Part shown: one piece after another, positions 20,553-64,000 of the stretch
Layout of the letters: each line of letters starts with the position of its first letter
Numbering within the stretch: position 1 is the stretch's first letter
From: Elusimicrobiota bacterium
Lineage (GTDB): Bacteria > Elusimicrobiota > Elusimicrobia > UBA1565
Direction of reading: 5' to 3'
NCBI GenBank assembly: GCA_016218495.1
Contig: JACRDU010000162.1
Coordinates: forward strand, 1 to 64,000
Length of the DNA stretch: 64,000 bases
Position numbers and translations under genes: made by a program
The notes under the pieces: generated by a model
Told to the model about the DNA's origin: nothing
Seen by the model: the letters and a program-made list of their open reading frames with translations, nothing else
The model's database searches: none

Positions 20553-21646
20553 GGTCCCTGGTCCTGCTGGCCCTGCTGCTCGCAGGGCCTGTGCGGGCGG
20601 CGGACCCCGCGCCGTTCGCGGACGAAATCGCCCGGCTGGAACTGCAGCGCACGGACCTGGAGCGCCGTCTCGCCAGCCGGCAGGGCCTGCTGGCCCAGGC
20701 GTCGGCCAAGCCTTCGGCCTCCAACATCGAGGCCGCCCAGCTCCTGCGCAAGGCCGTCTCCGACACGCGAGAGTCCCTGGCCGTGGTGGCCGCCAGCCTG
20801 CGCAAGCTGCGCGAATTCGGCGAGATGCTCGCCAAGATGCGGCTCAAGCCCAAAGCCGTCTTCGGAGCGTCGTCGGTGAAAGGGGAAGTCACGCTCATCA
20901 CGAAGGACGGGAGCCGCCCCCTCACCGCGGGTTCGGCCATCGAGGAGCCCGGCATCATCACCACCGGCGATGGGGCCGCGAACATCCTGCTTCCGGATGG
21001 GACCAGCCTGACTCTGGGCCCGCACAGCCGTTTCGACACGAAGGATTGGACGCTGCACAGCGGGGAGCTCTACTATGAGTCCCTGGATGCGCTGTTCGGG
21101 AAAGCCAGAGCGGCGATTCGAGGGAAATTCAAGAAGTTCGAGGTGCGCACCCCCTCCTGCGTGACATCGGTGCGGGGGACCAAGTTCCAGCTCAGCGCCG
21201 CCGCGCTCACCCTGTTCGACGGCGAAGTGGAGACCTCCACCTCCGCCCCGGCCGCCGCGCCGGCGTATTCCGGCCAGGCCCCTGAGCCCGGCGCCGTCGT
21301 TGAGACCGGCCCCGGGGAGACGCGTGCGCTGTCCCTGCCGGGCGGGCTGTCCGCCGTCCTGGGGCCCGAGAGCAGGCTCGAGGCGTCCAAGAGCGGCAAG
21401 CCGGTCGCCTTCCTGCGCCGCGGCTCGGCCCGCCTGCGCGCCCGCTGCGAGGGAGAGCCCGCCCAGGTCCTCGTCCCCAATGCCCGGGCCCAGGCGTCCT
21501 CGGCCGATTGGTCCATGCGCGTGCTCCCGTCGGGCGCGGCCGAGCTCTCGCTGGAGGCGGGGTCGGTGCTGATGACCGCCGACGAGAAGCGCCTGGACGC
21601 GGCGGCCCTCGAACGCTGGTGGGACGCCCGCTTCGAGGAGCCCTAG
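20549..21646 (+). CDS. secreted FecR-domain protein (GTG start overlapping the upstream stop)
   Basis: Signal VRSLVLLALLLAGPVRAA. FecR-like block ITTGDGAANILLPDGTSLTLGPHSRFD...VRTPSCVTSVRGTKFQL. Its stop shares the palindromic CTAG with the convergent barrel gene. Confidence 0.6.
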   Translation: MRSLVLLALLLAGPVRAADPAPFADEIARLELQRTDLERRLASRQGLLAQASAKPSASNIEAAQLLRKAVSDTRESLAVVAASLRKLREFGEMLAKMRLKPKAVFGASSVKGEVTLITKDGSRPLTAGSAIEEPGIITTGDGAANILLPDGTSLTLGPHSRFDTKDWTLHSGELYYESLDALFGKARAAIRGKFKKFEVRTPSCVTSVRGTKFQLSAAALTLFDGEVETSTSAPAAAPAYSGQAPEPGAVVETGPGETRALSLPGGLSAVLGPESRLEASKSGKPVAFLRRGSARLRARCEGEPAQVLVPNARAQASSADWSMRVLPSGAAELSLEAGSVLMTADEKRLDAAALERWWDARFEEP

Positions 21647-22587
21647 AACTTCAGACGGATGGTCGTGTGGTAGGCCGCGCCGAGGTCCCCGAACGGGACC
21701 CAGGCGAAGTCCACGCCGAAGCGCCCGTAGGAAGCCCCGCCGCCCAGCGTCACGCCGCCGAAGCCTTCCGCATCGGTGTTCGCGCTGTTCCAGCCGCCGC
21801 GCAGGGCCGTCGTCATGGCTCCGAAGGTCCGCGCCGCTTCCGCCCCCAGCGAGACCTGCGGGGAATCGTCTCGCGGGAAGCGGACCTCGACCGAGGCCAG
21901 CAGCCCTTGCGCGGGGCGCAGGGCGCCGCCCGCATATAAGGCGAACGGCAGCGGGGCCGGGCTCGAGCCCAGGCTCAGGCGCCCGCCCCAGTTCCGCCAG
22001 CCGGCGCCGGCGCTCAGCCGCCGCCCGCGCCAGAGCGCTCCGCCGTCGACGGCCGGGGCCCGGGCGCTGGCCGAGTCCAGCCGCTGTTCGACGAGCTTCA
22101 GCGTCCCGCCCACCGCCAGGCCCGGCAGGGCGAGCCGGCCGTACGAGAGGGAGTAAGCGAAGTCGGAGGCGCCGAACGTCCCCTGCGCCGCGTCGGTCTC
22201 GACCAGGCCCCGCCGCTCGATGCCCGACGCAACCAAGGTCTTCACCGAGAAGGCGGCCACGCCCCAGGCGTTGCGCTTGAGGCGGGTGTCCCGCAGAGAC
22301 AGGAGCGGCACCGCCACCGCCCCGAAATCGTGGGCCAGGTCCTGGAAGTGGCTGTCATGGGTGGCCGCCGCTTCCAGCGATTCCAGGAAGGCCAGCCCGG
22401 CCGGGTTGTAATGGGCCGCGTGCAGGTCGTCGGCCAGGCCTCCGAAGGCGTCCCCCATGGCGGCCGGCCGGGCTCCGGCGGGGATCTTCAGGAAGGCCGC
22501 GGCCGAGGTGCCCTTGTCGGCCGCGCCGAACGCTCCCGCATCGGCCGCGGCGCAAGCCAGCAGCAGGCAGAGGAGCCGCGCCCTCAT
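21643..22587 (-). CDS. FadL/PorV-like outer-membrane beta-barrel (module 1 partner of the 3,539-aa CTD protein)
   Basis: Signal MRARLLCLLLACAAADA. FadL hatch-type motif FLKIPAGARPAAMGDAFGGLADDLHAAHYNPAGLAFL. C-terminal ...TTIRLKF. The ATG overlaps the giant-gene stop (ATGA). Confidence 0.65.
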   Translation of the reverse strand: MRARLLCLLLACAAADAGAFGAADKGTSAAAFLKIPAGARPAAMGDAFGGLADDLHAAHYNPAGLAFLESLEAAATHDSHFQDLAHDFGAVAVPLLSLRDTRLKRNAWGVAAFSVKTLVASGIERRGLVETDAAQGTFGASDFAYSLSYGRLALPGLAVGGTLKLVEQRLDSASARAPAVDGGALWRGRRLSAGAGWRNWGGRLSLGSSPAPLPFALYAGGALRPAQGLLASVEVRFPRDDSPQVSLGAEAARTFGAMTTALRGGWNSANTDAEGFGGVTLGGGASYGRFGVDFAWVPFGDLGAAYHTTIRLKF

Positions 22588-25500
22588 TTGAGCACCGCCA
22601 TCTTGAAGAAGGCGGAGCGCCCGCCCACCTTCACCTGGCCTATATAGAGCCCGCTGGCCACGTCCTTTCCGGCGTCGTTTGCCCCGTCCCAAGCTTGGTA
22701 ATAGGACCGGCCGCCCTGCAGCTGGCCCAGGTCGACGGTGCGCACGCGCTCGCCCGCCGCGCTGAAGACCAGCAGGCGCCCGTCCCCGCCCTGGCCGGCC
22801 GGGACGGCGATGCGGACCAAGGTCCCCCGGACGGTCTGGATGGCGGCCCCGTGGATGGGGGTGACGGTCTTGAGGCGCAGGTCGAAGGGGTTGGGGAAGT
22901 TGTAGGCGCTGAGGACCCCGCCGTCATAGGCGTTCCCCGAGATGACGGCGGCGGCGGCGTCGAAGAGGACGAAGGTGGAGAAATGGTCGACGGAGAGCGA
23001 GACGGTCTTGTTCAAAGCGTCGAGCTCGAGAGGCGCCCCGGTGACGTCTTGCTGGAGCACGAAGGCGTTGGCGGCCTCGTTGTACCAGTAGACGTTGAGG
23101 CGCGCCGGCTCGGCTCCGGCGGCGTACCCGAGGCTCAGCCGGGCGGGCTTGGCCAGCCGCGAGCCGAGGCCGGAGGAGACGGCCACGTCGTAGTAAGGCC
23201 CCGCGGGGCGGACGTCCGGCGGGGTAGCGGCCATCGCCCGCACGAGGCCGGCGGGGTAGGCGTCCGTCCCGAAGCGCAGCGACGTACGGGTCGCCTCCTC
23301 GGCGGACAAGCCGGCGGCCGCCAGCCCCCGCGCCCCGAGCAGGAGCTCGTCGGTCCGCCGCAGCGCGATGGAGGCGGAGGAGGACGCGTCGAGGATGAAG
23401 GCGCCCTTGGGCAGGGCCACGCGCCCCGGGTCCCCCTCGATGGACAGCGTCCCGCCCGTGAGGTTCGAGAGCTGGGTGGACTGATACCCGTCGACCCCCG
23501 AGAAGAACGCCGCCGTCGCCACCGCCAGGAACTCCGCGGAATCCGCCGCGTCGGGGTCCCTCTCCTCGGTGCGCGCCGCGAAGCGCAGCGTGAAGCTGGA
23601 CTCGGAGACCCCCGGCGTATAGATGCCCAGCACCTTGCGCCGGTCCGCCGACAATTCCAGGCCGCTGAGGGCCCCTGACGCCGAGACCGTCGAGACCAGC
23701 CTGGCCGGGTCGTCGTCGGCCGCGGTCCGCGCCCGCAGCGGGCGCGAGGAGTTGAACTCGATGAGGAAGGCCCCCCCGGAGCGACGGGACTTCGCGGTGA
23801 TGCGCGGAGCGGGCGGGCGCACCACGACGTCGAGCACGCGGGACTCCGTCGTCGTCGAGAAGGACAGGGCCGATGCCTCGGGCGGCGTGTAGGGCTCGTC
23901 GTCGGCCGTGAGCACGATGAGCCGGTAGGTCTTGCCCGGCACGAACCCGCCGACCCGGTAGCGAGCCGCCGAGCGGCCCGCGGAATCGCGCAGCAGGCCC
24001 CCCTCGAGGACTTCCGACAGGTCGGCCGTCGCCGCGAAGACCCGGCGGACCTCGTCTTCGCCGGGCGCGCCCCCGTCCGGACGGCGCAGGACGCCGGAGA
24101 GGGACGCGGCCCGCTGCAGCGTGATGGTCCCCAAGGAGGGCGATGCGGCCGTCACCCGGACAGGGAGGGTCCGGGGGGCGCAGCCGAGGGCCTCCACCGT
24201 CAGCCTGTAGGCGCCCGCCGACAGGCCCGACAGGGAGAACGACCCGTCCGGGGCCGTCCGAGACACGGTGTTCCCCAAAGGGCCCTCCGTCGGAGGCCGG
24301 CCTTCCGGGTAGAGGTAGAGCTCGGCGCCCGGCTCCGCCACGGCCCCGTCCGAGGCGCCCAGCAGCTGCCCCCCGTCGGCCGCCAGGACGCGCCCGGAGA
24401 CCGAATACGGCGCCGCGCGCAGCGGGATGCTCAGCGCGGCCGTGCTGAGGACGTCGACCCCGGCGATGACGGTCTCATCGTAGGCCGGAGGCGGCTCGGA
24501 TGGGTCCTCCGGGCGGGCGGCCGCGACGATGTCGTAGAACCGGACGTCGGGGTCGAGCCCGCCCAGGGAGAACCGGCCCGCGCCGTCGCTGCGCACCGTG
24601 CGCGCGGGACGGCGCAGGCTCGACAGCCCCCCCACCGAAGGCCGGGCCGTGACCGGCACGCCGCCGGCGGGCAGGCCGCCGGACGAGTCGGTCAGCAGGC
24701 CCGCTACCGTCGCGGCCGAACGCAGCTTCACCACGCCCAGCTCGGCGGTCTGCCCCTCGGCCACCCGTACGCCGGCCCGCACGGCGGCGGCGGCGTCGAC
24801 GCCGCCCCCCGGCCCGGGGACGAGCTCGACGTCATAGACGCCCGCGAAGACCCCTCCGATGAGGATGGTCCCCGCCGCGTCGAAGTCGGGCCGGGCGCAG
24901 CCGCGGGGGCCGCAGAAGGCGCCCTGGGCCGGGAAGAAGCCCCCCTCCCGCCAGGGAGAGGCGACGGCGGCGATGCGCAGCTCCGCGGGCAGCAAGGTCC
25001 GGTCCGAGCCGTCGATCGGGACCAGCTCCAGGGTGCCCGACGAGGAACGGCGCTCGAGGGCGAGGCGCAGGCGGATGGACCCCAGGGCCTCGAGGGAGAC
25101 GGTCCCCGCGTCGGCCGCCCCCCCGTTGAGGCTGATGAGGCGCGGCCGGGCGCCGTAGGCCCGCGGGGTCCCGGCGTCGGCCACGGCGAGGACGAACTCC
25201 CCGTCGGGGAGGGAGTTGACGGCGAAGGCGGCCGGAGAGCCGGGAGCGGCCTCCACCGAGACCCGGCGCAGCTCCGTCCCGTCCAACGAGGAGAGCATGA
25301 CGTCCAGACGGCGTTTCGCGGGCGCGCCCGCCGGAAGGGCCAGGGCCCCCTGCACGGAGCCGCCCGGTCCGAGCCTCAGGTCCAACGCCGTGTCGGCCGT
25401 GACGGCGAGGGACGCCTCGACCGGAGCGGCCTCGTCGCCGTTGCCCGGGCTGCCGTCGAGGTCTCCCGGTATGCGGACGCGGTAATAGCCGGGCGGGACG

Positions 25501-33203: not shown

Positions 33204-33206
33204 TGG

Positions 33207-33665
33207 CTACTTGGACTGCTGCCTCGACATGAACTTCCGGCGCTCGGCCAGCTTCTTCATCTCCTCGGCGAAGGCCGGGTTCTTCTTGAGCATGAAGGAG
33301 AAGTCGGCCGAGAGGAGGACGAACAGGCGCGTCGCCTCCTCGCAGACCACGCTGGCGTTGCGCGGGTCGCGCGACAGCAGGGCCATCTCGCCGAAGAAGT
33401 CCCCCGGCCCGAGGCGGGCCACGGTCTTGGAGAGGAAGATGTACCTCTTGAGCCGCACGGAGACCGCCCCGTCGTAGACGATGTAGAAGGCGTCCCCCGG
33501 TTCGCCCTGATGGAAGACCGTCTCCCCGGGCTTATAACGGCAGAGCATGATGTACTTCACTATCTGCTCGAGCTCCCCGACGTTGAGCGGCGCGAAGAAC
33601 TCGACCTTCCTCATCGCCCGGGCCAGGTGGCCGTAGTCCGCGTCCGACATCGCTACCTTCTCCAT
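33207..33665 (-). CDS. stand-alone cyclic-nucleotide-binding (cNMP/CAP-effector) domain protein, no DNA-binding domain
   Basis: 152 aa. cNMP-binding beta-roll motifs GETVFHQGEPGDAFYIVYDGAVSV and FGEMALLSRDPRNASVV. The stop is 3 nt before the giant-gene ATG. Confidence 0.8.
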   Translation of the reverse strand: MEKVAMSDADYGHLARAMRKVEFFAPLNVGELEQIVKYIMLCRYKPGETVFHQGEPGDAFYIVYDGAVSVRLKRYIFLSKTVARLGPGDFFGEMALLSRDPRNASVVCEEATRLFVLLSADFSFMLKKNPAFAEEMKKLAERRKFMSRQQSK

Positions 33666-33674
33666 TTTCGCCTC

Positions 33675-36385: not shown

Positions 36386-36463
36386 CAGGGCTGGGAGGAG
36401 GGCTCTTACCCTAATAATGCTCTAAGGGTACGCGCCCCGCGCGAAGCGCGCAATACCTCAACG

Positions 36464-36537
36464 GTGTCAGACTTTCGGAACTTTCGAAAGTTCGAAACTC
36501 TGTCGGAACTTTCGAAAGTTCCGAAAGTCTGACACCA
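36464..36537. repeat. AT-rich nested inverted repeat. 30-bp perfect stem GGTGTCAGACTTTCGGAACTTTCGAAAGTT...AACTTTCGAAAGTTCCGAAAGTCTGACACC containing two copies of the 18-bp palindrome GGAACTTTCGAAAGTTC(C/G). Candidate terminator and/or operator.
   Basis: Read directly. Lies immediately after the TAA stop of the 36540 gene and about 80-150 bp upstream of the 34889..36385 gene. Flanked by small GC hairpins (GCGCGAAGCGCGC). Confidence 0.8.
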
Positions 36538-36539
36538 GT

Positions 36540-61500: not shown

Positions 61501-62056
61501 GCGTATTGAATTCGTTTATGAGCTGCTGGCCGCCGACGATGCTGGCGGTGATTATGCTCGTGCCGGAGGAGATGACCGCATGGAAGGAGGCTCCCGACGC
61601 GTCCTGGTAGGACGCTTGGAAGGCCAAGGTAATCCTGTCGTAGACCCGCATGTGGCGTTGCCCGTTGGCCGAGCCGACGACGAAGACGCTGCCGAGGGCG
61701 GGGTCGACGAAGACATCCTCGGCGACGTCGACGGAACTGCCGCCGCTGTCGAAGGTGGCCGAGGATAGCACGTTGCCGGACGGGTCATACTTGACGATGA
61801 GCCAGTCGGTCCCGCCGGGACCGAGATTGACGATCTTGCCGACGACGAAGACATTGCCGTTGGCGAGGTCGACGGAAATCCCCTGAGCGCGGTCGTTGTT
61901 GCCGCCGGTATCGTACGTGGCGCTGGTGAACGAGGTCGAGTAGTTGCCGGCGAACCCTGCGGCGCCTGCGGTGACGGGTAGGAAGAGGACAGACGCGACG
62001 ACCGTCCGCAATAACGCGGCGGTCGACCCTCGGCGGAGTCTCGGCGTTTCTCTCAC
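37499..62056 (-). CDS. giant (8,185 aa, 24.6 kb) secreted cell-surface protein: multiple SBBP-type beta-propellers, NHL-like propeller, about 14+ Ca-binding-loop beta-sandwich repeats, 2 FN3, 2 PPC domains, many Ig/CarboxypepD_reg-like domains, T9SS-type CTD
   Basis: Single uninterrupted ORF, GTG start, signal peptide (TAALLRTVVASVLFLPVTAGAAG). SBBP motifs (GNVFVVG...DWLIVKYDPSGNVLSS) recur through aa 40-2900. The C-terminus NFPNPFD...GVYILEY...HKMAVIKGSGL is Por_Secre_tail-like. Confidence 0.85.
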   Translation of the reverse strand: MRETPRLRRGSTAALLRTVVASVLFLPVTAGAAGFAGNYSTSFTSATYDTGGNNDRAQGISVDLANGNVFVVGKIVNLGPGGTDWLIVKYDPSGNVLSSATFDSGGSSVDVAEDVFVDPALGSVFVVGSANGQRHMRVYDRITLAFQASYQDASGASFHAVISSGTSIITASIVGGQQLINEFNTPALNLISTRAMTGSYVSGKQDRVLGWFPGNGVLVVGVRSDGGTLRVELLTAPNLTPAGSFDITPPDTLEGGAAVALAGSGDAYAVAFASVAGQSINYIFRIQNGVAVATATFASSGNVSSSDERSVAVDPNNYDVYYMGSGAFPGLKAFTPDLASSLRKDADPSSSMVVRASTQIYMTSVNQTAGPQNFASKMVDYAALPDGGGGQGGQTSLVNDGTYLYMSVANGDGTVDIRKMTPLNTLVSSITISGAGVDDNLPLVYTGGSLYMVGMASGPTTLGNDAAVWKFNPGPMTFVSSRTLDAGFGLTDFVMAATSTANGELRLAGAVELSAGSFATAIWEYATVSDTLFAPTYANAPSSSFDFVSSIASTGTAPGAPQYFWMLGMSSQPVGGAPNYIDLALWKYAAGSLTLANTLPGFMPSSEGNPTLTANGTNLFAGAMFMNGSGNMDLAVLKFDMDGSTVAEKYWHSTSPATHEKVGDIILRGAANVAVIGGQEPSQNLGYSAYWDYDLSLNLTAGYPKNLLSESVLYSGTDMGGTFYAVNNGSPTVVQLDGTGSVVAGAEGIEGAPAGAPSFTFGGAYNSANGNAITATGHNIIGRQIFVDTVTVSGPFVYVAFISTTANLGGELYPEVDSIARLDASGNLLSSTTLPGNAAGADAFAVDSAFNVYASYKVKPTSSTTSDVGIVKFNKFLAQQGQVSYQSPAAGGPAYTNATRMTTDGTNIYVHNDGSSLIKFSPSLVALATASYTTLPGFTNGNGITIDPSGNTYMVVNNATSTLHLLKYGPTFDGASPLVDVDVSTNLLPIIGNGGSIELAYAGGFVFALVGSEDGSELYIRKFDSSLNYTGFSSTFAPTRLQIGPGQIQAGPEGDIYIVTSGSTPVGSQYSAARYDVGLNLLSTAAFNAAGAGGSGVALHVPASGDVWATGTSCTGGGGNNCVARTTRLALSGGGGPGGPAVLTYSGSLPAGAFVNSTANRNEALFGLAVDSTTGNVYTVARSTSAPQWYAASGDSFLLKISPSGVVLASAALQGDRSGDALAWENGFVFVSEKEEPTTRRIARYDANLVRLSSVSVDAAAVGNITRAVAKNGFLYTINDGGLSDKGAKVIKYDAVTLNEVARSTLAPFGSDHLNGDDIVANVPGDIYVAVTSMTVTPPIQGALYRFDSSLVQLSSVSLTTTLGSQPRLAYGGGSVFVASGDSAAPAHAILHRYDSSTLASLGVSTNIYVPGASPETSITADATSLVVGLTSSTADGGSFLAFRFDHSFNQLSSGVFDAGFGGADSLTGVALYSGDGVALGGTGRNSTHDDGVVMLRTLASGGGAPAPMSFSGTFPVPGGALASGADEDRAYDIVKDTNTGDVFVVGHTSSPAGSYDALILHYDVGGNLVSSATYGLSPYNDSFRAVAQHANGDLFVGGSVDINSSGNSDFLLMRVSSITLAMISSTTMDSGTLDYFEAVTSHPNGYLYFAGHHFAASFFEIDLFRISTGLANVGFTGWASSLDYFANGVAADPVTGNIYTTGRINDTPARVLVAQVDENLNSAITEDTLPAGQQDGGIALAPSGTELYVTGSTVANGGDIILARYSVPTPTLVSTAALGGAGFEIASDLAFDATGDLLLAGSAGSPADYLAMRINPATLAMISSATADGAGNVDTAFAFVVGQTGALFLTGQSSNGANNDIRTTRLLLPLGAGGPAAPPAPVFTYSGALPSGKFVNTTDNRNEAVVALTADPVSGDLYAIAYSTTGAVWPPAGEAVILKMNSAGVVLSSATMYPLGTTSHTIAFDGGSLYVGANRGEPTIDTGIHRYDANLVFQSSATLGVGAGGTMAVARGGNVYALVDGGPLFLGGEYPTIIVKYSPSLAEISRTTYTVAGSWQTHAKWAAVDAVGNLFVAVSSMHMSPSGLVKFDTGLQVVGTLDISSLVGDPDSARIAYGSGKLFLFARSEGAGEAYVRRFSNTLAYDGVSSTFPVVGGQGMGAISADSANIVTVGLTSATADGGNFLLKRFDSNLVPFDTVLADAGFSGADAFMALLTSGPTGVYAAGAGYNTGHFDGVVKLQSLSAAPPAVVSTVSVSFAGTFSPGSRINNDVNGADIGHSLVIDSTGGFVYATIHSTSNASAGASPDQVTVVKYDLTGAFVASTTLLGSLSGDALAFENGSVFVAEKDEAGLRRMVKLGASLERLQTVTFNQNNIGNITRAASRAGFVYTVNDGGSISQGAKVVKLDTNLNEVARATFPISTQHVNGNNIVITPFGGEVFVSVSDGSNTVKLVKYDQNLNALAQADVSALFPAVVGQMDLAFSNGVLLAGSYDATGYNYRLRKFDPNLNYSGASSTLSVQSAPGAGLKSGPDGLFYLAITSYSADGGDYALKVFDPDLIEKASTSFDAGFAGFDQAIGLAVLDSSNVFVTGTGFNGANGYDAVTFVKNLSDAGSGTGGAPQGDGYWGVADMAGRLWTSYAAEDSLKRFDSPAPPVSRTAPAQQVLGFPQGVRNPRALSVDTGGNLWVAVSTAFGGPVNQLVRYAGEAGPGTVSTTTSSSLSTMLSDVWATAFRSDTGDLWVANRTGGGASVVNYLRDGASSLGAPTYSAGGASQFTSFAQLPGAAGLGFDSGNNLWVSVPALGEIRRYPEVAGSISGTPDVTITAVPAPFAFAFDFDGNMFVSEVTTDAAPGSGSVWRFENLGTLPSPFIDTTPQWVDGGKMLSGLAFVGGQLWGADFRNNQLVTVQTVPPTPPASYGSVEGTLGYDYGLTGAPDYKIVFSTSAFDIDNSAPATLMVSTGALGAFSASGLIAPNTYYVQALWDRNSSGEPDNFDPFARHSASFYGPLTPVVVLPDQTVTGLDLHLFDMVQVSGTVTNNSVQTGTLRVQHWYGDPASAGTRIEYPRSADNSLSTYTVFVATISNLYLQAFVDSNWNAAKDSGEDFATVGPIDLSGVSPNTTFVQNITIAAGTPGQVHLAAVSVAPQNISSNGEAAFLKLGLWSEGGNAQLSALRVSLLGDAPAQAVVARVWRDSNSDGNLTVGLDEFIGDEFFSAGVPPTANVVFWSTQTVTASTASYFVGLGIFGVPAGKSAGVGVESASAFTFPNGSMAAGQPLPAASDLAVSQFSLAARPFDMGYPVPQAGASPSGGFDTGLFINVGQTVEINASGFWNTGASGVSGPEGLGSTGGLGGALPIGALVGRIGGSNWFLVGSSKTFVSTQSGPLALAMNDTDYQDNSNGLAVDFHIVPSSVTQTWVGGSAFGAGADIPNNWASGQPPQPGESIVFNGANDCDWNLFQLNVGAWTMTPGYTGTVRLRGSNGPDDFNAIQVSSHAVIAGGTLDMGRNKEFRVQGGLFVTNGATFDLGRDNGRLFVGQAGAVVSGGGRFVYAPDQSAFSQVMPAGFNTVPFTVVEGTVNVTGNGFLRMERSNVTITSAANLLAFHNVGFDEWEQNATAAFTLARSSSQAMTFRGLQFYGQYTTNVNAAGVPVGSNVTMLDSMGPNRGTPKENDPNNVLFWNPDGGGAGNIAGSIINEAVSGPGAGFTRVRASTQPFFDTFAPQGGLQFTASVSGLSGTYNLNNLDAPATYYLFAWHDANNDFYPNGVETRGAFGPANKGFLRSDPVFVAPSDNLSGKDITVRDWGEVNVDFQNGSQQFGPMLVGAVSLLADGVSTNAVEALSYSQGPGFFNLSVPATSLVLIGWVDVNNNRELDSFEASGSSAVITLPQSGTYPGTVSISAGGGTAPPGGTVGASVVIPHGGLIGDNGPQTMAKLTLTGASSQASMNGLQVDIEGGPMQSYQLAFWIDNDGNGQLDQYCGGTGPCDNPVGFAYVTPPVSSAVVNFYQTLFLDPGQPRTAFLVFQPQGLQSGHQGLAPLSLTVAASNYFLMGAGSMDADPIYPIVSSATIGWAVFAGTEGDPFGGGGYYTCLSVAPGQQVVVQAAGSWNFKGQNTGPEGLSNTESAPNLLRGARTGALLVSANGGWVAVGTGTTITAGQNGGLGIHLSANDVPGDYFNNYGEMRVGLTVTGSTTSAVAGSINYLGALSGSNLIVNLKQDCQYAPFGCNPTVSTAVVSLAGAGSYPYVLHVPFGGFFTVEAYAQADPNQQSGKLPMFQAPIGSTAAVSFTVYSGLGQISGSLAYSGLMDFGQFNIGVTTSPDFEHEVNFVGGLKTPTAGPFTVTGLPIPANYYLVAFRDGNYNDQPDGPEPLGGYNLAPSQIVMSQLSSLLSPIAVSSAAGANIGTVTLGDMGGIQGRVFFDQAVNNKRFIIVAGHGVPGTASFAPEARDFRFVPSLPAGGSFDFFMGLLKPATDYRLVGFADLNFNGQFEANEPFTVNDAFLSVPSGGFANAEMRVGTPQPPAAVGSFGLGAFSDTQLTFQWSQVQGATGYLLLDASSAVVVALPGSASTYIEAASAASTSAIRGIQAVNNQGAGGIRAVFGIPAAAAVTPGAPTFSNVGVSSFTVDWTANGNGSLAYYQLESATVAAGPFQAVQYSPALTRAAIGLAPATTYYFQVKAQSPNGGFSAPSSVQSVVTLPSVDPSIAGLVSYTGTQTGDVYIQAFTSSAPFAGQAASVRMPKSSQQPYYLALGAGSYFVRAFVDVNANGTREAGEDQGTLGGAVAVVASPVIGQNFSVVADTVTPAAPAGLLATLSLGRVALTWNAPTLNQNGTPLADLAGYRVQRTTAGTANFATLSNQTVFGVSGIVAAPAFTDLSPIGGVDNIYRVLAIDWGGNVGGASGALAVRPAVGGTVSGSISTFTATSQGAYRVRLSTSPRREDPFLAESTLSDFSFTGLNDGVYYLRGFRDVNADNSQDAATEPSGTHGGIVGPFPLNIINGNTVANRPVTICDRAALRLGLDATGQFQAGDCPALDKGPGFYTDLYTFRAGGGAAGSIGTGSSVDISLVTPGFDSELIVLGPSGQVVARDNTPGNPHVTFLANEPGIYVVEPTSFFSGQTGFYDLLMNVYGGFTGQIAGVTSYSGSKTGPIRLQLFDRPDADAFPFHVQDQFGTGSFTIGNLKDGAFYLRAFRDENFNFAKDPGEPSGAYGFSESSPTAITVTGGVASVGSADIALADPSVGRIEGSILRQGSLAGTIRIEVGRRACSDCSDLNVVAFTTIPFAGSYALDFIAPATNYIVQAFVDQNANNRGDALEAKGSSTPVTVQANSTSTVNLLVRDPGTGTSGTSVIFGTVTYNGASTGTLFVAFATDQNFNYIPYYLTQSATGYFSRSGIQGGTTYYVGAFIDKNANGQIDEGGSLVEPSGDTGSQTFVPLSSSVGVAFTVVDPATGAVSGTVQYSGTVEGPLVVQAQRETMGGSHEGGFRSVSIPRTAGVSTYAYSAAFLSTGPFRMYAFVDSNGNQRSDFGEPFFRRDSLVNLGHLGQQVAGIDLVVFDAGAGGSGGAVGRIEGVLTYSGGQPGPIVVQAFTTNTFVGAPFRTATPGAQFGAISFAADNLPNGTYYLRAFKDPNGNQAYEPQFEAFGLVAGGSGLTVTADAPFSGGHVGTLSDAGQGGPVGSSSLSGTLEYRGSFSTGTFYLALFKDTDNDGSTDDLIRLSTLPFSAAPQSFTFSGLPDGQAWLRGFLDRNGNQQPDISEPFGLTDAQGISVFGPVTGLLMPVCDRVSLDLSPGAQNAGTINGGSCYSRESETLGSSQQLLTFHGTRGQILDATMEATEDNYLYLYDEHGQLVAQADEGGANQGDARLQVTLPGTGDYTLAATFYAPGIVGAYKIALQNSGGTPGSIAGEVIYSGSQGGKIVMALFNQENFDSEGAFVDGRDLPGPGAFSFQNLASETSYYMGAFVDVNFNNSPDQGEDFAVFSTAPPTATPIFLRAGQEVAGLSLVINPSTAAYGGLEGRVTGVISYTGSRQGVLRIEFWPDSSFQGRPLAVRSIPTGVGPYDLSVPGGQPYAVRAFLDVNNDFIPNPDEPMGVYSPNGQGAEPIYVPDNAARDGVDFEIRDPGFKLGQDGVSGEGFVNINSSQAAAGSAQVFISSFVVGPSGIGAGGAVAFGLPFGWTPPQSDSSMSPGFTTVTLSPAGPAVSTQPAPGGAPGIIVRVGGTPLAAGSTVQFLYNAAVPCFTGPSQFFFGSASTQTAPPAPLFSGNPIVDVTLGAAAAVHSAEPFIGLIQGATSQRLLLEAVDLCGNRTPVASVANVVLRAKRFSYQTAAFVDEPGLRISSSIAGVFDSTAVVTFAAGTSSATYRLRAATAGDLAVEIASNLLAPGTTGYAGVFALAVDPLTGVRVSTQPNPSVAQTTVTIRPDGNPLSPNLAFINFNIADQSLFWTVSIASTPYKADAAPNPVAFFSGSGQPARGQIAWDGRDYAGLRVGQGVYYVRIEAGGISNDSLRITVQSAALSLKVFDSGVTPNLPLSGVNIEYFGQFGGGTLLTDAQGAASLNGLSAGGYRLNITKDGYLVGRASVTVNADSTVRSTAPFNSQVELSTASFQSSTAPVRVLMSRAPSLIVVPNIPVTSTQAFTLWGELQISNASGTFSRNGPMRLEAGTTTFDDGGQYDNSVNAFVTKTVLRFQVGSDTYTVRARLEGFEDVSQSVFVAGSGETRLTLPVFSRRGAFTGTVALPNGSNTTGAFVSVSAVPISTETRIEGGFGGVELPVGVASDTYRVDGLKPGSYRLTANTQGYKAVFIDSATILSGVDTVVNFSSFPASNTSVLTATLSVTGDTSLFPALEPGGPSVRIHLNAWAPNTPNQAYRSVDIPVSATLSSVAVQLTGLEPGIKYQVFAGIESRGNTEFEVPGGFSREVTLSTTTGQGDVAFSFEAASGVVSGTILIPNGNTDFGNVTLFGETIAAVRPERVGKRFEEVATALDGWSTTASTGTFLLTGNNTETVDVTFVYKTTGRSVRKRVSIVNGSTTTVFVDLTDQTFAISGAVLNQISNTNFNTNPKLVANAGHLPVKGRTGADVPVDPATVDLGDVLTSTNSLARVVAIRQEFGVGTSTSFNPATDRVGYLTSAGTYTIRNVPPGVYLVRTADIRSRMDAAGTACTTCAVVVPRLAQIVAVGTASVQASTFTLTDGYSVTGVLTLAAGVQDFRTLRLTLRNRRLEVVRSTTVALGNSAAGVTAASTSYRLEGLPAGEFYTLSVEDAASEPKYLGRPIRFPDSAQSPGGLAANLVSQDVLMRRAGYLTGKLQDAASGELFTERNAKVLPPNLRITATANPWVEGGFAQAASSVSARPIRADGTFLVGPLFPDTPYDLKVFQDKWDLAFLAQGSQNYSPVELGGLSLQPFERKDVGTLSMNQGTSIKGTLVDAASTTTALGNIKLVAKPSHGDVSLVVETFSNANGEFTLWVSTFVSPQYDVTVAPRDGNQAASGVRYAQVDLIRLAVSTTPLNIQLNALLGSVTGQVLTDDGSPLAYPFGENQGYPAAAVFLQPLGVVSLDNPLGDTEVDTLSDGSFSFPGVAVGSYTIRAVSLGFGVATATVTVNAGSFCISTTTVVGLCAPGLTLARGGLLQGRILLPNGTSPSTEEVGGVAAANSDFSKFIIGSVSIDQTARTVNSYSISGFEPGVSYNVVILPPHRDDLDVVYPAEGQGISFSAAESTTTKTVNLTYSRTAPDCYADSREKALGNGQFQVKIACSQPLRKLLASDDDVDTIVSVSSFASNGTNYTAPNGQGALLGGSDKKIESNRKEITVVYRAGSASEKNFSIKLNAVMATVDPTTGENFTLLKVFDFAAAVSQNGSNRVITSQANKPVNNSQGGQVNLQTSERVEGQGDSEKFGLNFAPGSFEGCSAGDTNYNCQGKLGDKNKVQVGVQGSLDANQAAQLSMAQLGYVPARIQALQASAYGPLAASTATNNAFKANPFSSFYEVFLPLGIRAQLTKPVDLTLPYDTSLATTTSVSALKIWSISNGQAPVEETNNKRIDTINKTITVSVDHFSTFVVLNGAPGLVGAATFRDEKPIAFNFPNPFDCRSRTINCNVAEGSCAAGALTGVGTVIHYAAPGAVTPLDHRFRIYNVAGELVDEFHKTANGGTHNYDFWDCTNAAGRPVASGVYILEYTVNGQSVYHKMAVIKGSGL

Positions 62057-62116
62057 AGCGGTGCTACAAAACCTTTACAGCGACAACATGTAAGCACAAC
62101 TTCCCGATTTGCGCAA

Positions 62117-62134
62117 GGGTGACTTCGGTCACCC
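62117..62134 (-). other. stem-loop GGGTGAC-CGAA-GTCACCC (7-bp stem, tetraloop) in the 86-nt spacer between the OMP gene and the giant gene
   Basis: Read directly. On the minus-strand transcript it lies just after the OMP stop and about 60 nt before the giant-gene GTG. Confidence 0.5.
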
Positions 62135-62141
62135 CTCCTAA

Positions 62142-63383
62142 CTAATAGTCGTAACTGAAGCCGAACAGGTAATTCGCCGTCGAGTACGTGTACCGATAAG
62201 TCTTCTCGTAAGTCATGTTCGAGTCGGTCCACAGGAAGTTCGCCTGCGCGAGCATCCGGAAATTCTTCGCGATGGGCACGCCGTAGCCGAGTTGGACGAG
62301 GTAGCGGTCCTGGGTCTGCGTGTCCGTCTGATAGCGCCCGTTGGGGTCCTGCACCAGGCGCCCGAGGTAGTTCTGGCGCGACCAGGAGAAGCCCAGCGTC
62401 GCCGTCGTCGGAGCTTCCTTGTCCCCCCACGACATCCCCGCGCTAGGGCCCGCCGACACCGACCAGGAGCTGTAGGCGTCCGGGATGAAGCGGGTCTGCC
62501 CGGCGTCGTAGGTGTTCTGGTTCGAGCCCGTGTAGTTGAAGCCGGTGTTGAAGCCCACCGAGAGCTTGGCCTTGCCCTTCAGCACGTCGCGCGGGTGGAC
62601 GATGGAAGCGGTCAGGGCGTTGGTGAAGTCCTGGCGGTTCTCGTTGACGAACTGCCCGGCCAGGTTCACCAGCGGCTGGTCGTGGAACTTCTGCCAGAGC
62701 AGGCGGTAGCCCAGGGTCACGGCCGCCACCGGCTTGTCGTAGGGCACGGGACGCGAAAGCGTAAAGGAGAGCTGCTGGTTCAAGGTGTCGAGGGTGCGCA
62801 CGCCGGCCGTCTCGCGGCCGAGGGCGTTGCCGGCCGGGTCCACCCCGGACTTGGATTCCAGGGACTTGAAGTTCGGGAAGCGCGTGTAGAAGAAATCGTA
62901 GCCCCAGCGGTAGGAGAAGGGTTCCTTGTAGACGTTCTCCGCCTCGAAGCCCAGGCCCACCGTCTGCGTGTCGAAGAGGCCCTTGCCCCAGGTCTCGTCC
63001 CGGGTCTCTTTGAGGAAGTCGAACTTGTAGGAGAGCGAAGGCTTGAGCTTCCAGTTGCTGCCCGCGATGCTGCGCAGGTAGCCGACCGAGAGCCGGTGCG
63101 ACATGCCCTGCGCGAACAGGGTCCCGGACCCGATGGGGTCGGAGACGCCCTTCGTGCCGCGGTAGGAGGCGCTATATAAGGGAAGGAGCAGGCGCCCCTC
63201 CCCCAGCTTCACCACCGGCGCGGCGCTCGCGGTCAGGTTGCCGTTCAACTTGGACTTGTCCCCCGAGAAGAAGTACTGCCCGCCCAAGGCCGTGACTCCG
63301 TAGACCGGAATGACCTCGACCGCCCTCAAAGGGGAGGTCATGAGAGCCGCGAAGGCCAGGGGAAGGAGGGGGCTGGTCTTCAC
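62142..63383 (-). CDS. outer-membrane beta-barrel protein, unknown family (paralog of 33675..34892)
   Basis: GTG start. Signal MKTSPLLPLAFAALMTSPLRA. C-terminal aromatic beta-barrel signature ...NYLFGFSYDY. Alternating hydrophobic patterns throughout. Confidence 0.65.
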   Translation of the reverse strand: MKTSPLLPLAFAALMTSPLRAVEVIPVYGVTALGGQYFFSGDKSKLNGNLTASAAPVVKLGEGRLLLPLYSASYRGTKGVSDPIGSGTLFAQGMSHRLSVGYLRSIAGSNWKLKPSLSYKFDFLKETRDETWGKGLFDTQTVGLGFEAENVYKEPFSYRWGYDFFYTRFPNFKSLESKSGVDPAGNALGRETAGVRTLDTLNQQLSFTLSRPVPYDKPVAAVTLGYRLLWQKFHDQPLVNLAGQFVNENRQDFTNALTASIVHPRDVLKGKAKLSVGFNTGFNYTGSNQNTYDAGQTRFIPDAYSSWSVSAGPSAGMSWGDKEAPTTATLGFSWSRQNYLGRLVQDPNGRYQTDTQTQDRYLVQLGYGVPIAKNFRMLAQANFLWTDSNMTYEKTYRYTYSTANYLFGFSYDY

Positions 63384-63390
63384 TGCGCTG

Positions 63391-64000
63391 CTAAGGTATC
63401 AATCCCGACTGCATCAAAATCTTCGGCTCGTACACCAGGTCGATCCGACGGCCCCCGAACTCCGAGGCGGTGATGATCTGCTGGTAGTTGAAGTCGAGCA
63501 GGCGCTTCTTGTATTCGGCCCCGTTCGTCAGGCCGGCGAAATCGGAGTGCTTGGCCACGGTCCCTTTGTCGTCGATGATATAGTTGTCGAACTTGTCCCA
63601 GATGGTGCCGCCCACGTTCTGCCGGTAGACGATGTCGTGGAAGGAGCCGGGCTCGCGGTTGCCGGTGCAGAAATCGAGGTTGGTGCAGTTGGGCGAGGAG
63701 AGCAGGGCGAGGTTCGTCCCCGTGAAGGTCCGGTCGGCCATGCTGGTGATGTCGGCCCCGTTCGTCCAGCCGGTATGCTGGACCCCGTTGAACTTCAGGG
63801 TGTAGACATTGAAAAGGGTGGAGAAGAAGGCCGTGCCGGCCGGCAGCGCCACGAAGTCGTTGACCGCCGGGTCGAAGGCCTTGGTCACGTTGTCGGTGGC
63901 GTCGGCGTTCGCGTTGAGGTTGACCTGATGCCCTCCGGTCGCCGTCTCCAGGACGGTGTCCGAGGTGTTCGACCAGGCCGTCTGGTAGCCGGTCAGGAAA
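63391..64000 (-). CDS. secreted FecR-domain-family protein, 3' part only (gene continues beyond the window). Paralog of 34889..36385.
   Basis: The frame is open to the window edge (the listed ORF begins at an internal GTG). TATGGHQVNLNANADATDNVTKAFDPAVNDF aligns to TADGGHLVDLNANADGADDVSSVFDPVTGDF of the module-1 gene. Confidence 0.5.
   Translation of the reverse strand, partial: FLTGYQTAWSNTSDTVLETATGGHQVNLNANADATDNVTKAFDPAVNDFVALPAGTAFFSTLFNVYTLKFNGVQHTGWTNGADITSMADRTFTGTNLALLSSPNCTNLDFCTGNREPGSFHDIVYRQNVGGTIWDKFDNYIIDDKGTVAKHSDFAGLTNGAEYKKRLLDFNYQQIITASEFGGRRIDLVYEPKILMQSGLIP

What the first reader, a model, noticed from the sequence alone, without database searches (positions are those of the whole stretch)
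21643..64000. Tandemly duplicated 4-gene module for giant CTD-bearing surface proteins: FecR-like, OM barrel, giant adhesin, FadL/PorV-like barrel
On the minus strand the order [secreted FecR-domain protein][~410-aa OM beta-barrel][giant ORF with T9SS-type C-terminal domain][FadL/PorV-like barrel] occurs twice. Module 2 is >64000..36540 and module 1 is 36385..21643. All four components of one module are paralogous to those of the other, and the junctions are tightly coupled (GTGA and ATGA overlaps). In Bacteroidetes the gliding adhesin SprB is co-encoded with a cognate PorP/SprF-type barrel, and PorV shuttles CTD cargo. Here each giant protein appears to carry its own FadL/PorV-like partner plus an upstream barrel and a periplasmic FecR-like protein. 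I do not know of this arrangement as a described unit. This looks like a self-contained export and anchoring cassette for giant adhesins that has been duplicated and then diverged, since the cargos are unrelated in architecture.
Basis: partly seen in the sequence, partly recalled or inferred. Interest (0 to 1): 0.88.

Follow-up and report, generated by a model that had tools for sequence, protein, structure and literature searches.

The report
Elusimicrobial giant surface-protein export/anchor cassette
Two old, tandem copies of an operon conserved across the phylum Elusimicrobiota each encode a giant surface protein with a type-IX-secretion-like tail, a matching PorV/PorQ-like outer-membrane barrel, and an upstream FecR-like protein paired with a new 16-stranded barrel; this is a candidate undescribed way of exporting and anchoring giant proteins in a phylum where type IX secretion has not been reported.

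Summary
On the minus strand the order [FecR-domain protein A][~410-aa barrel B][giant D][~315-aa barrel E] occurs twice (>64000-36540 and 36385-21643), with GTGA/ATGA start-stop overlaps. Three details need correcting. Module 1 has a fifth gene, a 152-aa cNMP-binding protein. E is a PorV/PorQ-family barrel, not FadL. The two giants are homologous over their C-terminal ~2,000 aa (27% identity, E 1e-94), not unrelated. The source is a 70% GC Elusimicrobiota MAG. The cassette is conserved: 223 relatives of B in species-representative genomes, and every named record among the best 80 is Elusimicrobiota. A precedes B in 64 of 67 testable loci, a giant ORF follows in about 52 of 55, and E overlaps the giant's stop codon wherever the giant's end is visible. 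The same tandem pair recurs in at least 7 other genomes, so the duplication is ancient. The C-terminal domains are FlgD-Ig / T9SS type-A-like and match best the retained tails of PorZ and PorU. B has no Pfam family; its model is a 16-stranded barrel without POTRA domains. Best reading: E carries or anchors its giant through the tail (analogous to PorZ-PorQ and SprB-SprF), and A+B assist passage across the outer membrane (inferred, weaker). I could not test whether the genome has a T9SS core. I rate it a new variant of a known kind, interest about 0.7.

The parts
63391..64000 (-). A2, C-terminal 202 aa of the module-2 FecR-like periplasmic protein (the gene runs off the window)
   Evidence: Frame-1 translation runs off the window end. 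It is 31% identical to A1 aa 292-498. The full-length orthologue in L001 is 509 aa with PF04773 FecR.
62142..63383 (-). B2, 413-aa outer-membrane barrel of a new Elusimicrobiota-specific family
37499..62056 (-). D2, 8185-aa giant secreted protein (Sec signal peptide, beta-sandwich domains, module X, C-terminal sorting domain)
   Evidence: ORF. N-terminal signal peptide. Pfam DUF2141, fn3, CarboxypepD_reg, PEGA, SpaA. Orthologue of 8542 aa in L001.
51080..51838 (-). Module X in D2 (about aa 3407-3659), a ~200-aa domain also found in D1 and as an N-terminal extension of some B barrels
37502..37849 (-). C-terminal sorting domain of D2 (last 116 aa; FlgD-Ig / T9SS type-A-like; conserved Cys pair; KGSGL tail)
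   Evidence: TIGR04183 22.0 against 23; FlgD_ig 18.7 against 27; hits to the PorZ and PorU tails. Family alignment A3.
36540..37502 (-). E2, 320-aa PorV/PorQ-family barrel, translationally coupled to D2 (GTGA)
   Evidence: NF033709 163.1 against 90; PF19572 PorV 34 against 27. F. johnsoniae PorV 6h3i_F, E 2.3e-6. NCBI names the identical protein 'PorV/PorQ family protein'.
36470..36537 (-). Intermodule AT-rich palindrome (34-bp stem, two copies of GGAACTTTCGAAAGTTCC), followed by a second GC-rich hairpin; probable terminator or RNA-stabilising structure between the modules
   Evidence: Sequence. RNA fold -76.6 kcal/mol, z -10.7. Not conserved in other genomes' intermodule regions.
34889..36418 (-). 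A1, FecR-domain periplasmic protein (498 aa from GTG 36385; probably starts at ATT 36418 or 36415, which restores the signal peptide)
   Evidence: PF04773 25.1 against 24. The AF2 model is confident only for aa 18-165. Start-codon argument.
33675..34892 (-). B1, 405-aa barrel, paralogue of B2, GTGA overlap with A1
   Evidence: Its best relatives are the module-1-type barrels of L051, L046 and L055.
33207..33665 (-). C1, 152-aa stand-alone cNMP-binding protein without a signal peptide (optional fifth gene)
   Evidence: PF00027 77.7 bits. Orthologues occupy the same position in at least 14 loci.
22584..33203 (-). D1, 3539-aa giant secreted protein
   Evidence: Signal peptide. CarboxypepD_reg and FlgD_ig. 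C-terminal 2000 aa homologous to D2.
31629..32177 (-). Module X in D1 (about aa 343-525)
22587..22907 (-). C-terminal sorting domain of D1 (last 107 aa)
   Evidence: FlgD_ig 32.3-35.1 bits against 27.
21643..22587 (-). E1, 314-aa PorV/PorQ-family barrel, ATGA overlap with D1
   Evidence: NF033709 107.6 against 90; UPF0164 28.5 against 21.4. 38% identical to E2.

Best explanation
This is a conserved Elusimicrobiota operon for the biogenesis of giant cell-surface proteins, present here as two anciently diverged tandem copies.

Shown:
- Each copy encodes (i) a Sec-signal-bearing protein A with a FecR-type beta-sandwich domain, translationally coupled to (ii) a 16-stranded outer-membrane barrel B of a previously unclassified family.
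- It then encodes (iii) sometimes a small cytoplasmic cNMP-binding protein C, and (iv) a giant (2,300 to over 8,000 aa), non-repetitive, beta-sandwich-rich secreted protein D. D ends in a FlgD-Ig / T9SS type-A-like C-terminal domain.
- Last comes (v) a PorV/PorQ-family barrel E whose start codon overlaps the giant's stop codon.

Inferred mechanism:
1. D crosses the inner membrane via Sec.
2. Its C-terminal domain is bound by its own cognate barrel E. E acts as carrier and non-covalent outer-membrane anchor, in the way PorQ holds the retained tail of PorZ, PorV holds that of PorU, and SprF carries SprB.
3. The A+B pair assists passage or assembly of the giant at the outer membrane. A would act as the periplasmic receptor or chaperone, and B as a channel or docking barrel.

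Step 2 is moderately supported. Step 3 is the weakest.
For: Conserved unit:
- 223 relatives of B in one-genome-per-species contigs; every named record among the best 80 is Elusimicrobiota.
- A lies upstream of B in 64/67 testable loci. A D-homologue or an ORF of roughly 1000 aa or more lies downstream in about 52/55.
- Complete A-B-D-E sets are visible in L057, L064 and L073.
- Look-ups starting from E found giants of 6826 and 5622 aa ending 4 nt inside E.
- 4-nt A/B overlaps occur in at least 20 loci.
- The tandem [D2-like, E2-like][A1-, B1-, C1-, D1-like] arrangement recurs in L046, L051, L055, L066, L067, L081 and L084. Best hits follow an orthologue pattern.

Tail and E barrel:
- Of 12 tails, 11 match FlgD_ig, 8 match TIGR04183, 11 match the PorZ tail and 9 match the PorU tail. 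A PDB profile search hits FlgD, PorZ 5m11 and PorU 6za2.
- E passes NF033709 and matches solved PorV.
- Literature: the PorU tail stays bound to PorV and the PorZ tail to PorQ, and type-B cargo genes cluster with cognate PorP/SprF carriers (PMC10202324; PMC12635249).
- A smaller tail-bearing protein paired with a PorV-like barrel, without A/B, occurs in L085. This shows cargo-carrier pairing is a general rule in this phylum.

A/B:
- Invariant residues cluster in three segments (aa 125-138, 169-199, 287-305) that fall in loops L3, L4 and L6 of the model.
- One A-B fusion protein has no internal signal peptide (P0391).
- Some B barrels carry N-terminal fn3 or module-X domains. Module X is otherwise found only in the giants.
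Against: - No experiment and no complex prediction supports any contact (tail-E, A-B or B-D).
- E is below the equivalog cut-offs for PorV (72.5 against 250) and PorQ (98.9 against 220). Only family-level membership holds.
- The D2 tail is just under the TIGR04183 and FlgD_ig cut-offs.
- B has no POTRA domains, and D has no TPS or other shared N-terminal domain.
- The A-B fusion is a single sequence from one partial MAG protein.
- Module X is absent from some complete cassettes (L057, L064, L073).
- Whether the genome has a T9SS core was not testable. If it does, A/B need not be a translocon.
Confidence: 0.55

Rival explanations
1. The cassettes are cargo-plus-carrier modules of a canonical but so far unrecognised T9SS in Elusimicrobiota. 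D would be translocated by a SprA/Sov-like translocon powered by GldLM/PorLM encoded elsewhere. E would be the cargo-specific PorV-like shuttle. A/B would be accessory, for example quality control, regulation or a second anchor.
For: The tail and the PorV/PorQ-family barrel are the two hallmark cargo-side elements of T9SS. In Bacteroidota the distribution of tail-bearing proteins correlates with the T9SS core (PMC10202324). T9SS genes are normally scattered, so their absence from this 64-kb window says little.
Against: Published surveys find T9SS core genes only in FCB-superphylum phyla (PMC11285876; PMC4793230). No paper links Elusimicrobia with T9SS. This reading does not explain why a dedicated FecR-like protein and a 16-strand barrel are translationally coupled and conserved upstream of nearly every giant.
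Confidence: 0.25
2. A and B have nothing to do with exporting D. B is a substrate-specific porin and A a periplasmic binding or sensor protein. They are co-regulated with a giant surface protein that captures substrates or prey, giving a capture-and-uptake locus. Only D-E is a secretion/anchoring pair.
Against: A has no transmembrane or anti-sigma part, and no sigma factor gene is nearby. The conservation in B is concentrated in loop segments, which is unlike typical porins, whose external loops vary. Module X and fn3 domains, shared with the giants, are fused to some B barrels, and A is fused to B once. The A-B-D adjacency is near-universal while D sequences diverge strongly.
Confidence: 0.15
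3. The pattern is an artefact: long spurious ORFs in 70% GC DNA, or a recent assembly duplication.
For: High-GC DNA produces many long overlapping ORFs on both strands.
Against: Every component has homologues at 35-90% identity in the same order in more than 60 independent assemblies, including low-GC genomes (39-47% GC bins such as L073 and L078). The paralogues are only 27-38% identical, so this is not an assembly repeat.
Confidence: 0.01

Closest known systems
T9SS attachment-complex pairs PorZ-PorQ and PorU-PorV (Porphyromonas gingivalis)
   Same: A secreted protein keeps an Ig-like type-A C-terminal domain that stays bound to a PorV/PorQ-family outer-membrane barrel, which tethers it at the surface. 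The tails here score best against exactly the PorZ and PorU tails, and E is a PorV/PorQ-family member.
   Different: Here each giant has its own barrel encoded immediately downstream and translationally coupled. E is not an orthologue of PorV or PorQ, since it falls below the equivalog cut-offs. The organism is outside the FCB superphylum. No PorU sortase or SprA translocon is known for it.
sprCDBF operon of Flavobacterium johnsoniae (giant gliding adhesin SprB with its cognate PorP/SprF-family carrier)
   Same: A four-gene operon in which a giant (about 6,500 aa) surface adhesin is followed by the gene for its dedicated outer-membrane barrel carrier and preceded by two accessory genes. Cargo-carrier gene clustering is the rule for type-B CTD proteins (PMC10202324, PMC12635249).
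   Different: SprB has a type-B CTD and SprF is PorP-family. Here the tail is type-A/FlgD-Ig-like and the barrel is PorV/PorQ-family (TIGR03519 PorP scores only 16.3 against 90.55). I did not compare A and B with SprC/SprD, and no homology is claimed.
Two-partner secretion (type Vb: TpsB/FhaC/CdiB with TpsA)
   Different: There are no POTRA domains, no TPS domain on the cargo and no sequence similarity (7-10% identity). The barrel gene is separated from the cargo's C-terminal signal system. Porins match B almost as well.
FecR-type periplasmic sensor domains (PF04773) of anti-sigma factors
   Same: A carries a FecR domain (25.1 bits in A1; 55.2 bits in P0391) and is genetically coupled to an outer-membrane barrel.
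   Different: A has a cleavable signal peptide instead of an N-terminal anti-sigma domain plus transmembrane helix. It has a ~330-aa C-terminal region of unknown fold. No ECF sigma factor gene or TonB-dependent transducer is nearby.

Membership tests
Type IX secretion system (T9SS) | Cargo carries a type-A CTD (TIGR04183 / PF18962) | tested here: inconclusive
   D2 scores TIGR04183 22.0 against 23 and PF18962 13.7 against 27. D1 hits only FlgD_ig (32.3 against 27). Across 12 cassette tails, 8 match TIGR04183 at E<=0.01, 11 match FlgD_ig and 11 match the PorZ tail.
Type IX secretion system (T9SS) | PorV shuttle (NF033710) or PorQ (NF033711) orthologue | tested here: not met
   E2 scores PorV 72.5 against 250 and PorQ 98.9 against 220. 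E1 scores 32.8 and 52.2. Only the broad family model is passed.
Type IX secretion system (T9SS) | Core machinery: SprA/Sov translocon, GldK/L/M/N (PorK/L/M/N), PorU sortase, PorZ | not testable with these tools
   None is present in the 64-kb window (Pfam on the other ORFs). The literature reports none outside FCB phyla (PMC11285876, PMC4793230).
Type IX secretion system (T9SS) | Occurrence within the FCB superphylum | tested here: not met
   All named homologues are Elusimicrobia/Elusimicrobiota.
PorV/PorQ family protein (NCBIfam NF033709) | Full-length match above the curated cut-off (90 bits) | tested here: met
   E2 163.1 bits (aa 33-320, profile 1-326). E1 107.6 bits (aa 27-312). E2 also matches solved PorV 6h3i_F at E 2.3e-6.
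FadL / Toluene_X outer-membrane transporters (PF03349) | Match above the gathering score over the barrel | tested here: not met
   E2 scores 22.5 against 29.7, over aa 40-83 only. E1 has no hit.
PorP/SprF family (TIGR03519) | Match above the cut-off (90.55) | tested here: not met
   E2 scores 16.3 bits. B1 and B2 have no hit.
FecR anti-sigma factor | FecR periplasmic domain (PF04773) | tested here: met
   A1 scores 25.1 against 24. Homologues carry precomputed PF04773. P0391 scores 55.2 bits.
FecR anti-sigma factor | N-terminal cytoplasmic anti-sigma domain plus transmembrane helix, and a partner ECF sigma factor gene | tested here: not met
   A homologues begin with cleavable Sec signal peptides. 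No sigma factor gene lies in or next to the cassettes.
Two-partner secretion TpsB / Omp85 | 16-stranded barrel | tested here: met
Two-partner secretion TpsB / Omp85 | Periplasmic POTRA domains on the barrel protein, and a TPS domain on the cargo | tested here: not met
   In B the barrel begins immediately after the signal peptide. No POTRA or Haemagg_act hit appears in B or D.
Cyclic-nucleotide-binding domain (PF00027) | Match above the gathering score | tested here: met
   C1 scores 77.7 against 27.5.

The most novel reading that the evidence does not exclude
Elusimicrobiota lack the T9SS core, and the A-B-(C)-D-E cassette is a self-contained, previously unrecognised outer-membrane secretion and anchoring pathway for giant proteins. 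A novel 16-stranded barrel with a FecR-like periplasmic partner would translocate the Sec-exported giant, and a cargo-specific PorV/PorQ-like barrel would capture its Ig-like C-terminal domain to tether it. This would make the tail/PorV carrier module older than, or independent of, the T9SS motor and translocon.
Probability: 0.25. Interest if true: 0.9.

Novelty: new variant of a known kind. Interest (0 to 1): 0.7.

Why it matters
Reviews state that T9SS tail-bearing proteins and T9SS genes are confined to Bacteroidota or the FCB superphylum. This cassette places the cargo-side logic of T9SS (an Ig-like C-terminal signal plus a cognate PorV/PorQ-type barrel) in a different phylum. There it is hard-wired one barrel per giant cargo and always accompanied by two further conserved envelope proteins of unknown function.

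If the T9SS core is truly absent, this points to a new route across the outer membrane for proteins of up to about 8,000 residues. It would also bear on how the T9SS carrier and attachment module evolved.

The finding also gives a functional context to the 'huge proteins' for which Elusimicrobia are noted (PMC11573180). It defines a new barrel family of 465 cluster representatives with no Pfam model, and compact 11-kb versions of the cassette (L057, L064, L073) that could be tested heterologously.

Tried and rejected
- Exact-protein look-ups aimed at extending the window past 64000 failed or returned only a 5.6-kb contig. The 5' part of A2 and its upstream region were therefore not seen directly. 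In related loci a divergent ~221-aa PF05552 membrane protein sits there.
- AF2 on A1 with a shallow 14-sequence alignment gave pLDDT 52. Only the FecR domain was confident, so I ran no fold search on it.
- The afdb50 fold library was unavailable.
- PDB sequence-profile searches with the A and B families found nothing meaningful.
- Self-BLAST of the giants found no internal repeats at E<1e-8, so they are not built of tandem near-identical repeats like RTX or Bap adhesins.
- The sigma-70 promoter and terminator scan was uninformative.
- The intermodule palindrome is not conserved in other genomes, so I rejected it as a conserved operator.
- I considered the third FecR gene (20279-21646, +) as part of the system. 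It shares only the FecR domain with A, and no match to it other than the A proteins' FecR domains was found in the held loci.
- FadL and PorP/SprF assignments for E were rejected on scores.
- Strict complementarity of module X between B and D was rejected, because short complete giants also lack it.
- Literature searches for Elusimicrobia with T9SS, PorV or giant proteins found no description. The Meheust et al. 2020 Elusimicrobia paper is not held.
Full report
**1. What is in the sequence**

The window is about 70% GC. On the minus strand between 21643 and 64000 the ORF map and translations give two modules.

| Gene | Module 2 | Module 1 |
|---|---|---|
| A (FecR-like) | 63391->64000, runs off the window | 34889-36385, 498 aa |
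| B (barrel) | 62142-63383, 413 aa | 33675-34892, 405 aa |
| C (cNMP-binding) | absent | 33207-33665, 152 aa |
| D (giant) | 37499-62056, 8185 aa | 22584-33203, 3539 aa |
| E (barrel) | 36540-37502, 320 aa | 21643-22587, 314 aa |

- The other junctions are short gaps: A2/B2 7 nt, B1/C1 9 nt with a GGAGG, C1/D1 3 nt, B2/D2 85 nt.
- Pairwise BLASTP confirms paralogy of A (31%, E 5e-26), B (31%, 5e-55) and E (38%, 2e-55).
D1 aa 1558-3539 aligns with D2 aa 6125-8181 (27% identity over 2175 aa, E 1e-94), and a shorter shared segment lies further upstream.

**2. Family assignments**

- A1 passes Pfam FecR marginally (25.1 against 24). Its homologues do so clearly.
- B1 and B2 match no Pfam or NCBIfam family.
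- C1 is a cNMP_binding domain (77.7 bits) with no signal peptide.
- E1 and E2 pass NCBIfam NF033709 'PorV/PorQ family protein' (107.6 and 163.1 against 90). They fall far below the PorV, PorQ and PorV2 equivalog cut-offs and below PorP/SprF. The FadL/Toluene_X hit is sub-threshold and covers only 45 residues. E2 alone finds solved F. johnsoniae PorV (6h3i_F) at E 2.3e-6.
- Both giants have Sec signal peptides and scattered beta-sandwich domains (CarboxypepD_reg, DUF2141, fn3, PEGA, SpaA). They contain no near-identical internal repeats.
- The last ~110 residues of each giant form a conserved domain: NFPNPFD...GT(M/L)I(R/H)...IYNVAGELVR...WDG/C.N..G..VASGVYI...FFKMA(V/I)IK.
  - I aligned 12 such tails from this window and related loci.
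  - 11 match FlgD_ig, 8 match TIGR04183 (T9SS type A sorting domain), 11 match the tail of PorZ and 9 match that of PorU.
  - A PDB profile search returns FlgD, then PorZ (5m11) and PorU (6za2).
  - So the tails belong to the FlgD-Ig / type-A CTD superfamily. For the window's own D2 the curated cut-offs are narrowly missed.

**3. Source and conservation**

- Identical A1 and E2 proteins exist in NCBI on a 96,861-bp contig of an Elusimicrobia MAG. NCBI already names them 'FecR domain-containing protein' and 'PorV/PorQ family protein'.
- Every source-supplied name among the homologues of B2 is Elusimicrobia/Elusimicrobiota; they are otherwise 'hypothetical' and carry no Pfam domain.
- A scan of one genome per species found 223 loci encoding a relative of B. 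Every named record among the best 80 is Elusimicrobiota, spanning roughly 39-70% GC bins and several orders.
- I annotated those loci locally with phmmer, using the window's proteins as queries:
  - A lies immediately upstream of B in 64 of 67 loci with enough flank, often with a 4-nt overlap (at least 20 loci).
  - A D-homologue or another ORF of roughly 1000 aa or more follows in about 52 of 55.
  - A C-type gene sits between B and D in 11 of the 55 loci with enough downstream flank, and C1 finds 14 relatives in all.
  - Where the giant is short enough to fit in the flank (L057, L064, L073), the full A-B-D-E set is seen.
- Starting independently from E homologues, two look-ups found giants of 6826 and 5622 aa ending 4 nt inside E.
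- The tandem arrangement is itself conserved. A D2-like giant and an E2-like barrel are followed by an A1-, B1-, C1- and D1-like module in L046, L051, L055, L066, L081 and L084, and in L067 with an insertion.
- B1, A1, C1 and E2 find their best matches in exactly those positions. The duplication is therefore ancient, not a recent event in this genome.
- An exhaustive profile search with the B family over 1.84 billion cluster representatives gives only 465 hits at E<=1e-3. The family is small, and every member that carries a source name is from Elusimicrobiota.

**4. Structure of B and links between the components**

- AF2 on a 33-sequence alignment gives a confident model of B2 (pLDDT 84.5). 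It has 16 strands that start right after the signal peptide, so there is no POTRA or plug domain.
- The invariant residues of the family cluster in three inter-strand segments: KETRDExWGxGLFD, FPNxxSLESxxGxDPxGxxLxRE and SNQNxYDA. With the usual outer-membrane-protein topology these are external or lumenal loops L3, L4 and L6. That placement is an inference. It suggests a conserved plug or binding platform rather than a variable porin surface.
- Three observations tie B to its neighbours:
  - One protein (P0391, a partial Elusimicrobia MAG protein) is an A-B fusion with no internal signal peptide. Its layout is a periplasmic module followed by a 16-strand barrel, as in Omp85/TpsB proteins.
  - Some B barrels carry an N-terminal extension, joined by a Pro/Ala-rich linker. 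The extension is an fn3 domain or one to two copies of a ~200-aa 'module X'.
  - Module X is otherwise found only inside the giants (D1 about aa 343-525, D2 about aa 3407-3659, and about 30 other D ORFs).
- The giants of the extended-B loci show no module X. Some short complete giants lack it too, so the complementarity is suggestive and not strict.
- AF2 on A1 was confident only for the FecR domain.

**5. Most likely mechanism**

- Shown: the five gene products, their family or fold assignments, their signal peptides, their translational coupling, and their phylum-wide co-conservation.
- Inferred with moderate support: E is the cognate carrier or anchor of its giant through the C-terminal domain.
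  - In T9SS, PorV/PorQ-family barrels bind such tails. The retained tails of PorU and PorZ stay bound to PorV and PorQ. Type-B cargos such as SprB are encoded next to their dedicated PorP/SprF carriers (PMC10202324; PMC12635249).
  - L085 also shows a 1317-aa NHL protein with a canonical tail followed by its own 288-aa PorV-like barrel, without A/B. One carrier per cargo therefore seems to be the rule in this phylum.
- Inferred with weak support: A plus B help the giant across, or into, the outer membrane. Translational coupling, the fusion and the shared domains argue for a physical A-B-D assembly. The nature of that assembly (translocon, docking site or second anchor) is open.
- C is presumably a cytoplasmic cyclic-nucleotide-responsive regulator. 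Its role is unknown.

**6. Comparison with known systems and novelty**

- The closest known analogues are the PorZ-PorQ and PorU-PorV pairs and the sprCDBF operon. Two-partner secretion is a looser analogue for A/B.
- Membership of T9SS is not established:
  - only the family-level PorV/PorQ criterion is met;
  - the tail criterion is borderline;
  - PorV and PorQ orthology is not met;
  - the taxonomic criterion is not met;
  - the core machinery could not be searched for.
- Published surveys place T9SS genes, and CTD proteins, only in Bacteroidota or FCB phyla (PMC11285876; PMC4793230; PMC10202324).
- Full-text searches found no paper connecting Elusimicrobia with T9SS, PorV or this gene arrangement. 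Elusimicrobia are only noted as rich in huge proteins (PMC11573180).
- I therefore rate this a new variant of a known kind. It uses T9SS-style cargo and carrier logic, in a new phylum, with a new accessory pair that includes an unclassified barrel family.
- The most novel reading not excluded is a self-contained secretion and anchoring pathway. I give it about 25%.

**7. Limits**

- No genome-wide search for the T9SS core was possible.
- No multimer predictions were possible.
- The A-B fusion is a single sequence.
- The 5' end of A2 lies outside the window.

Noticed in passing
window 33207-33665 (-): A 152-aa stand-alone cNMP-binding protein without a signal peptide sits between barrel B1 and giant D1. 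Orthologues occupy the same slot in at least 14 related loci of both module types, but not in this window's module 2. Its role in an operon of envelope proteins is unexplained.
   Followed up: partly
window 36470-36537 (and a second GC-rich hairpin at about 36425-36455), minus strand: An AT-rich 34-bp-stem palindrome containing two copies of the perfect 18-bp palindrome GGAACTTTCGAAAGTTCC lies between E2 and A1. It folds at -76.6 kcal/mol (z -10.7). It occurs nowhere else in the window and is not conserved in other genomes' intermodule regions, which instead share a TGTAACAAAAGT...GTTA(C/T)ACT motif.
   Followed up: partly
window 36385-36424 (-): The first canonical start of A1 (GTG 36385) lies in the middle of the signal peptide. 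In-frame ATT codons at 36418 and 36415, just after the TAG at 36424-36422, would restore an RVRALLPALVLALF signal peptide. They align with the ATG of homologues in L081 and L067, so A1 probably uses a non-canonical ATT start.
   Followed up: partly
window 17896-21646 (+): Convergent with E1 is a third secreted FecR-domain protein (20279-21646; PF04773 67.4 bits). It is preceded by a PDZ plus beta-helix protein (18759-20552) and a TPR protein (17896-18981). It shares only the FecR domain with A, and in the held loci it matched nothing except the FecR domains of the A proteins.
   Followed up: partly
window 1115-2833 (-): A protein combining an adenylate/guanylate cyclase domain with an HD-type phosphohydrolase domain. 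It is a possible source or sink of the nucleotide sensed by C1, but I found no evidence for a link.
   Followed up: no
window 31629-32177 and 51080-51838 (-); L052, L059, L071, L075, L076; P0264-P0266: A ~200-aa domain with no Pfam match ('module X') occurs in both giants and in about 30 related giants. In some lineages it forms the N-terminal extension of the B barrel, joined by a Pro/Ala-rich linker. One other B barrel carries an fn3 domain in that position.
   Followed up: yes
L001 660-1325, L002 7713-8387 and 24 further loci (outside the window, upstream of A2-type genes): A ~221-aa multi-pass membrane protein (PF05552, 'conserved TM helix') is divergently encoded immediately upstream of module-2-type cassettes in 26 distinct loci, often next to a response regulator. 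It probably lies just beyond position 64000 in the source contig.
   Followed up: partly
L085 11104-15948: A 1317-aa NHL/ZU5 protein with a canonical T9SS-type-A-like tail is followed by its own 288-aa PorV-like barrel, without any A/B genes. Cargo-carrier pairing in Elusimicrobiota therefore extends beyond the giant cassettes.
   Followed up: partly
window 37502-37849 (-) and alignment A3: Module-2-type tails have a conserved cysteine pair (NFPNPFDC ... WxC) and end in KGSGL. Module-1-type tails have Leu/Gly at those positions and end at the K. This may be a specificity determinant for the cognate barrel.
   Followed up: no
L084 13899-15683: In one related genome a 594-aa protein with a Peptidase_S74 (intramolecular chaperone/endosialidase-type) domain replaces the cNMP-binding gene between the barrel and the giant.
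   Followed up: no
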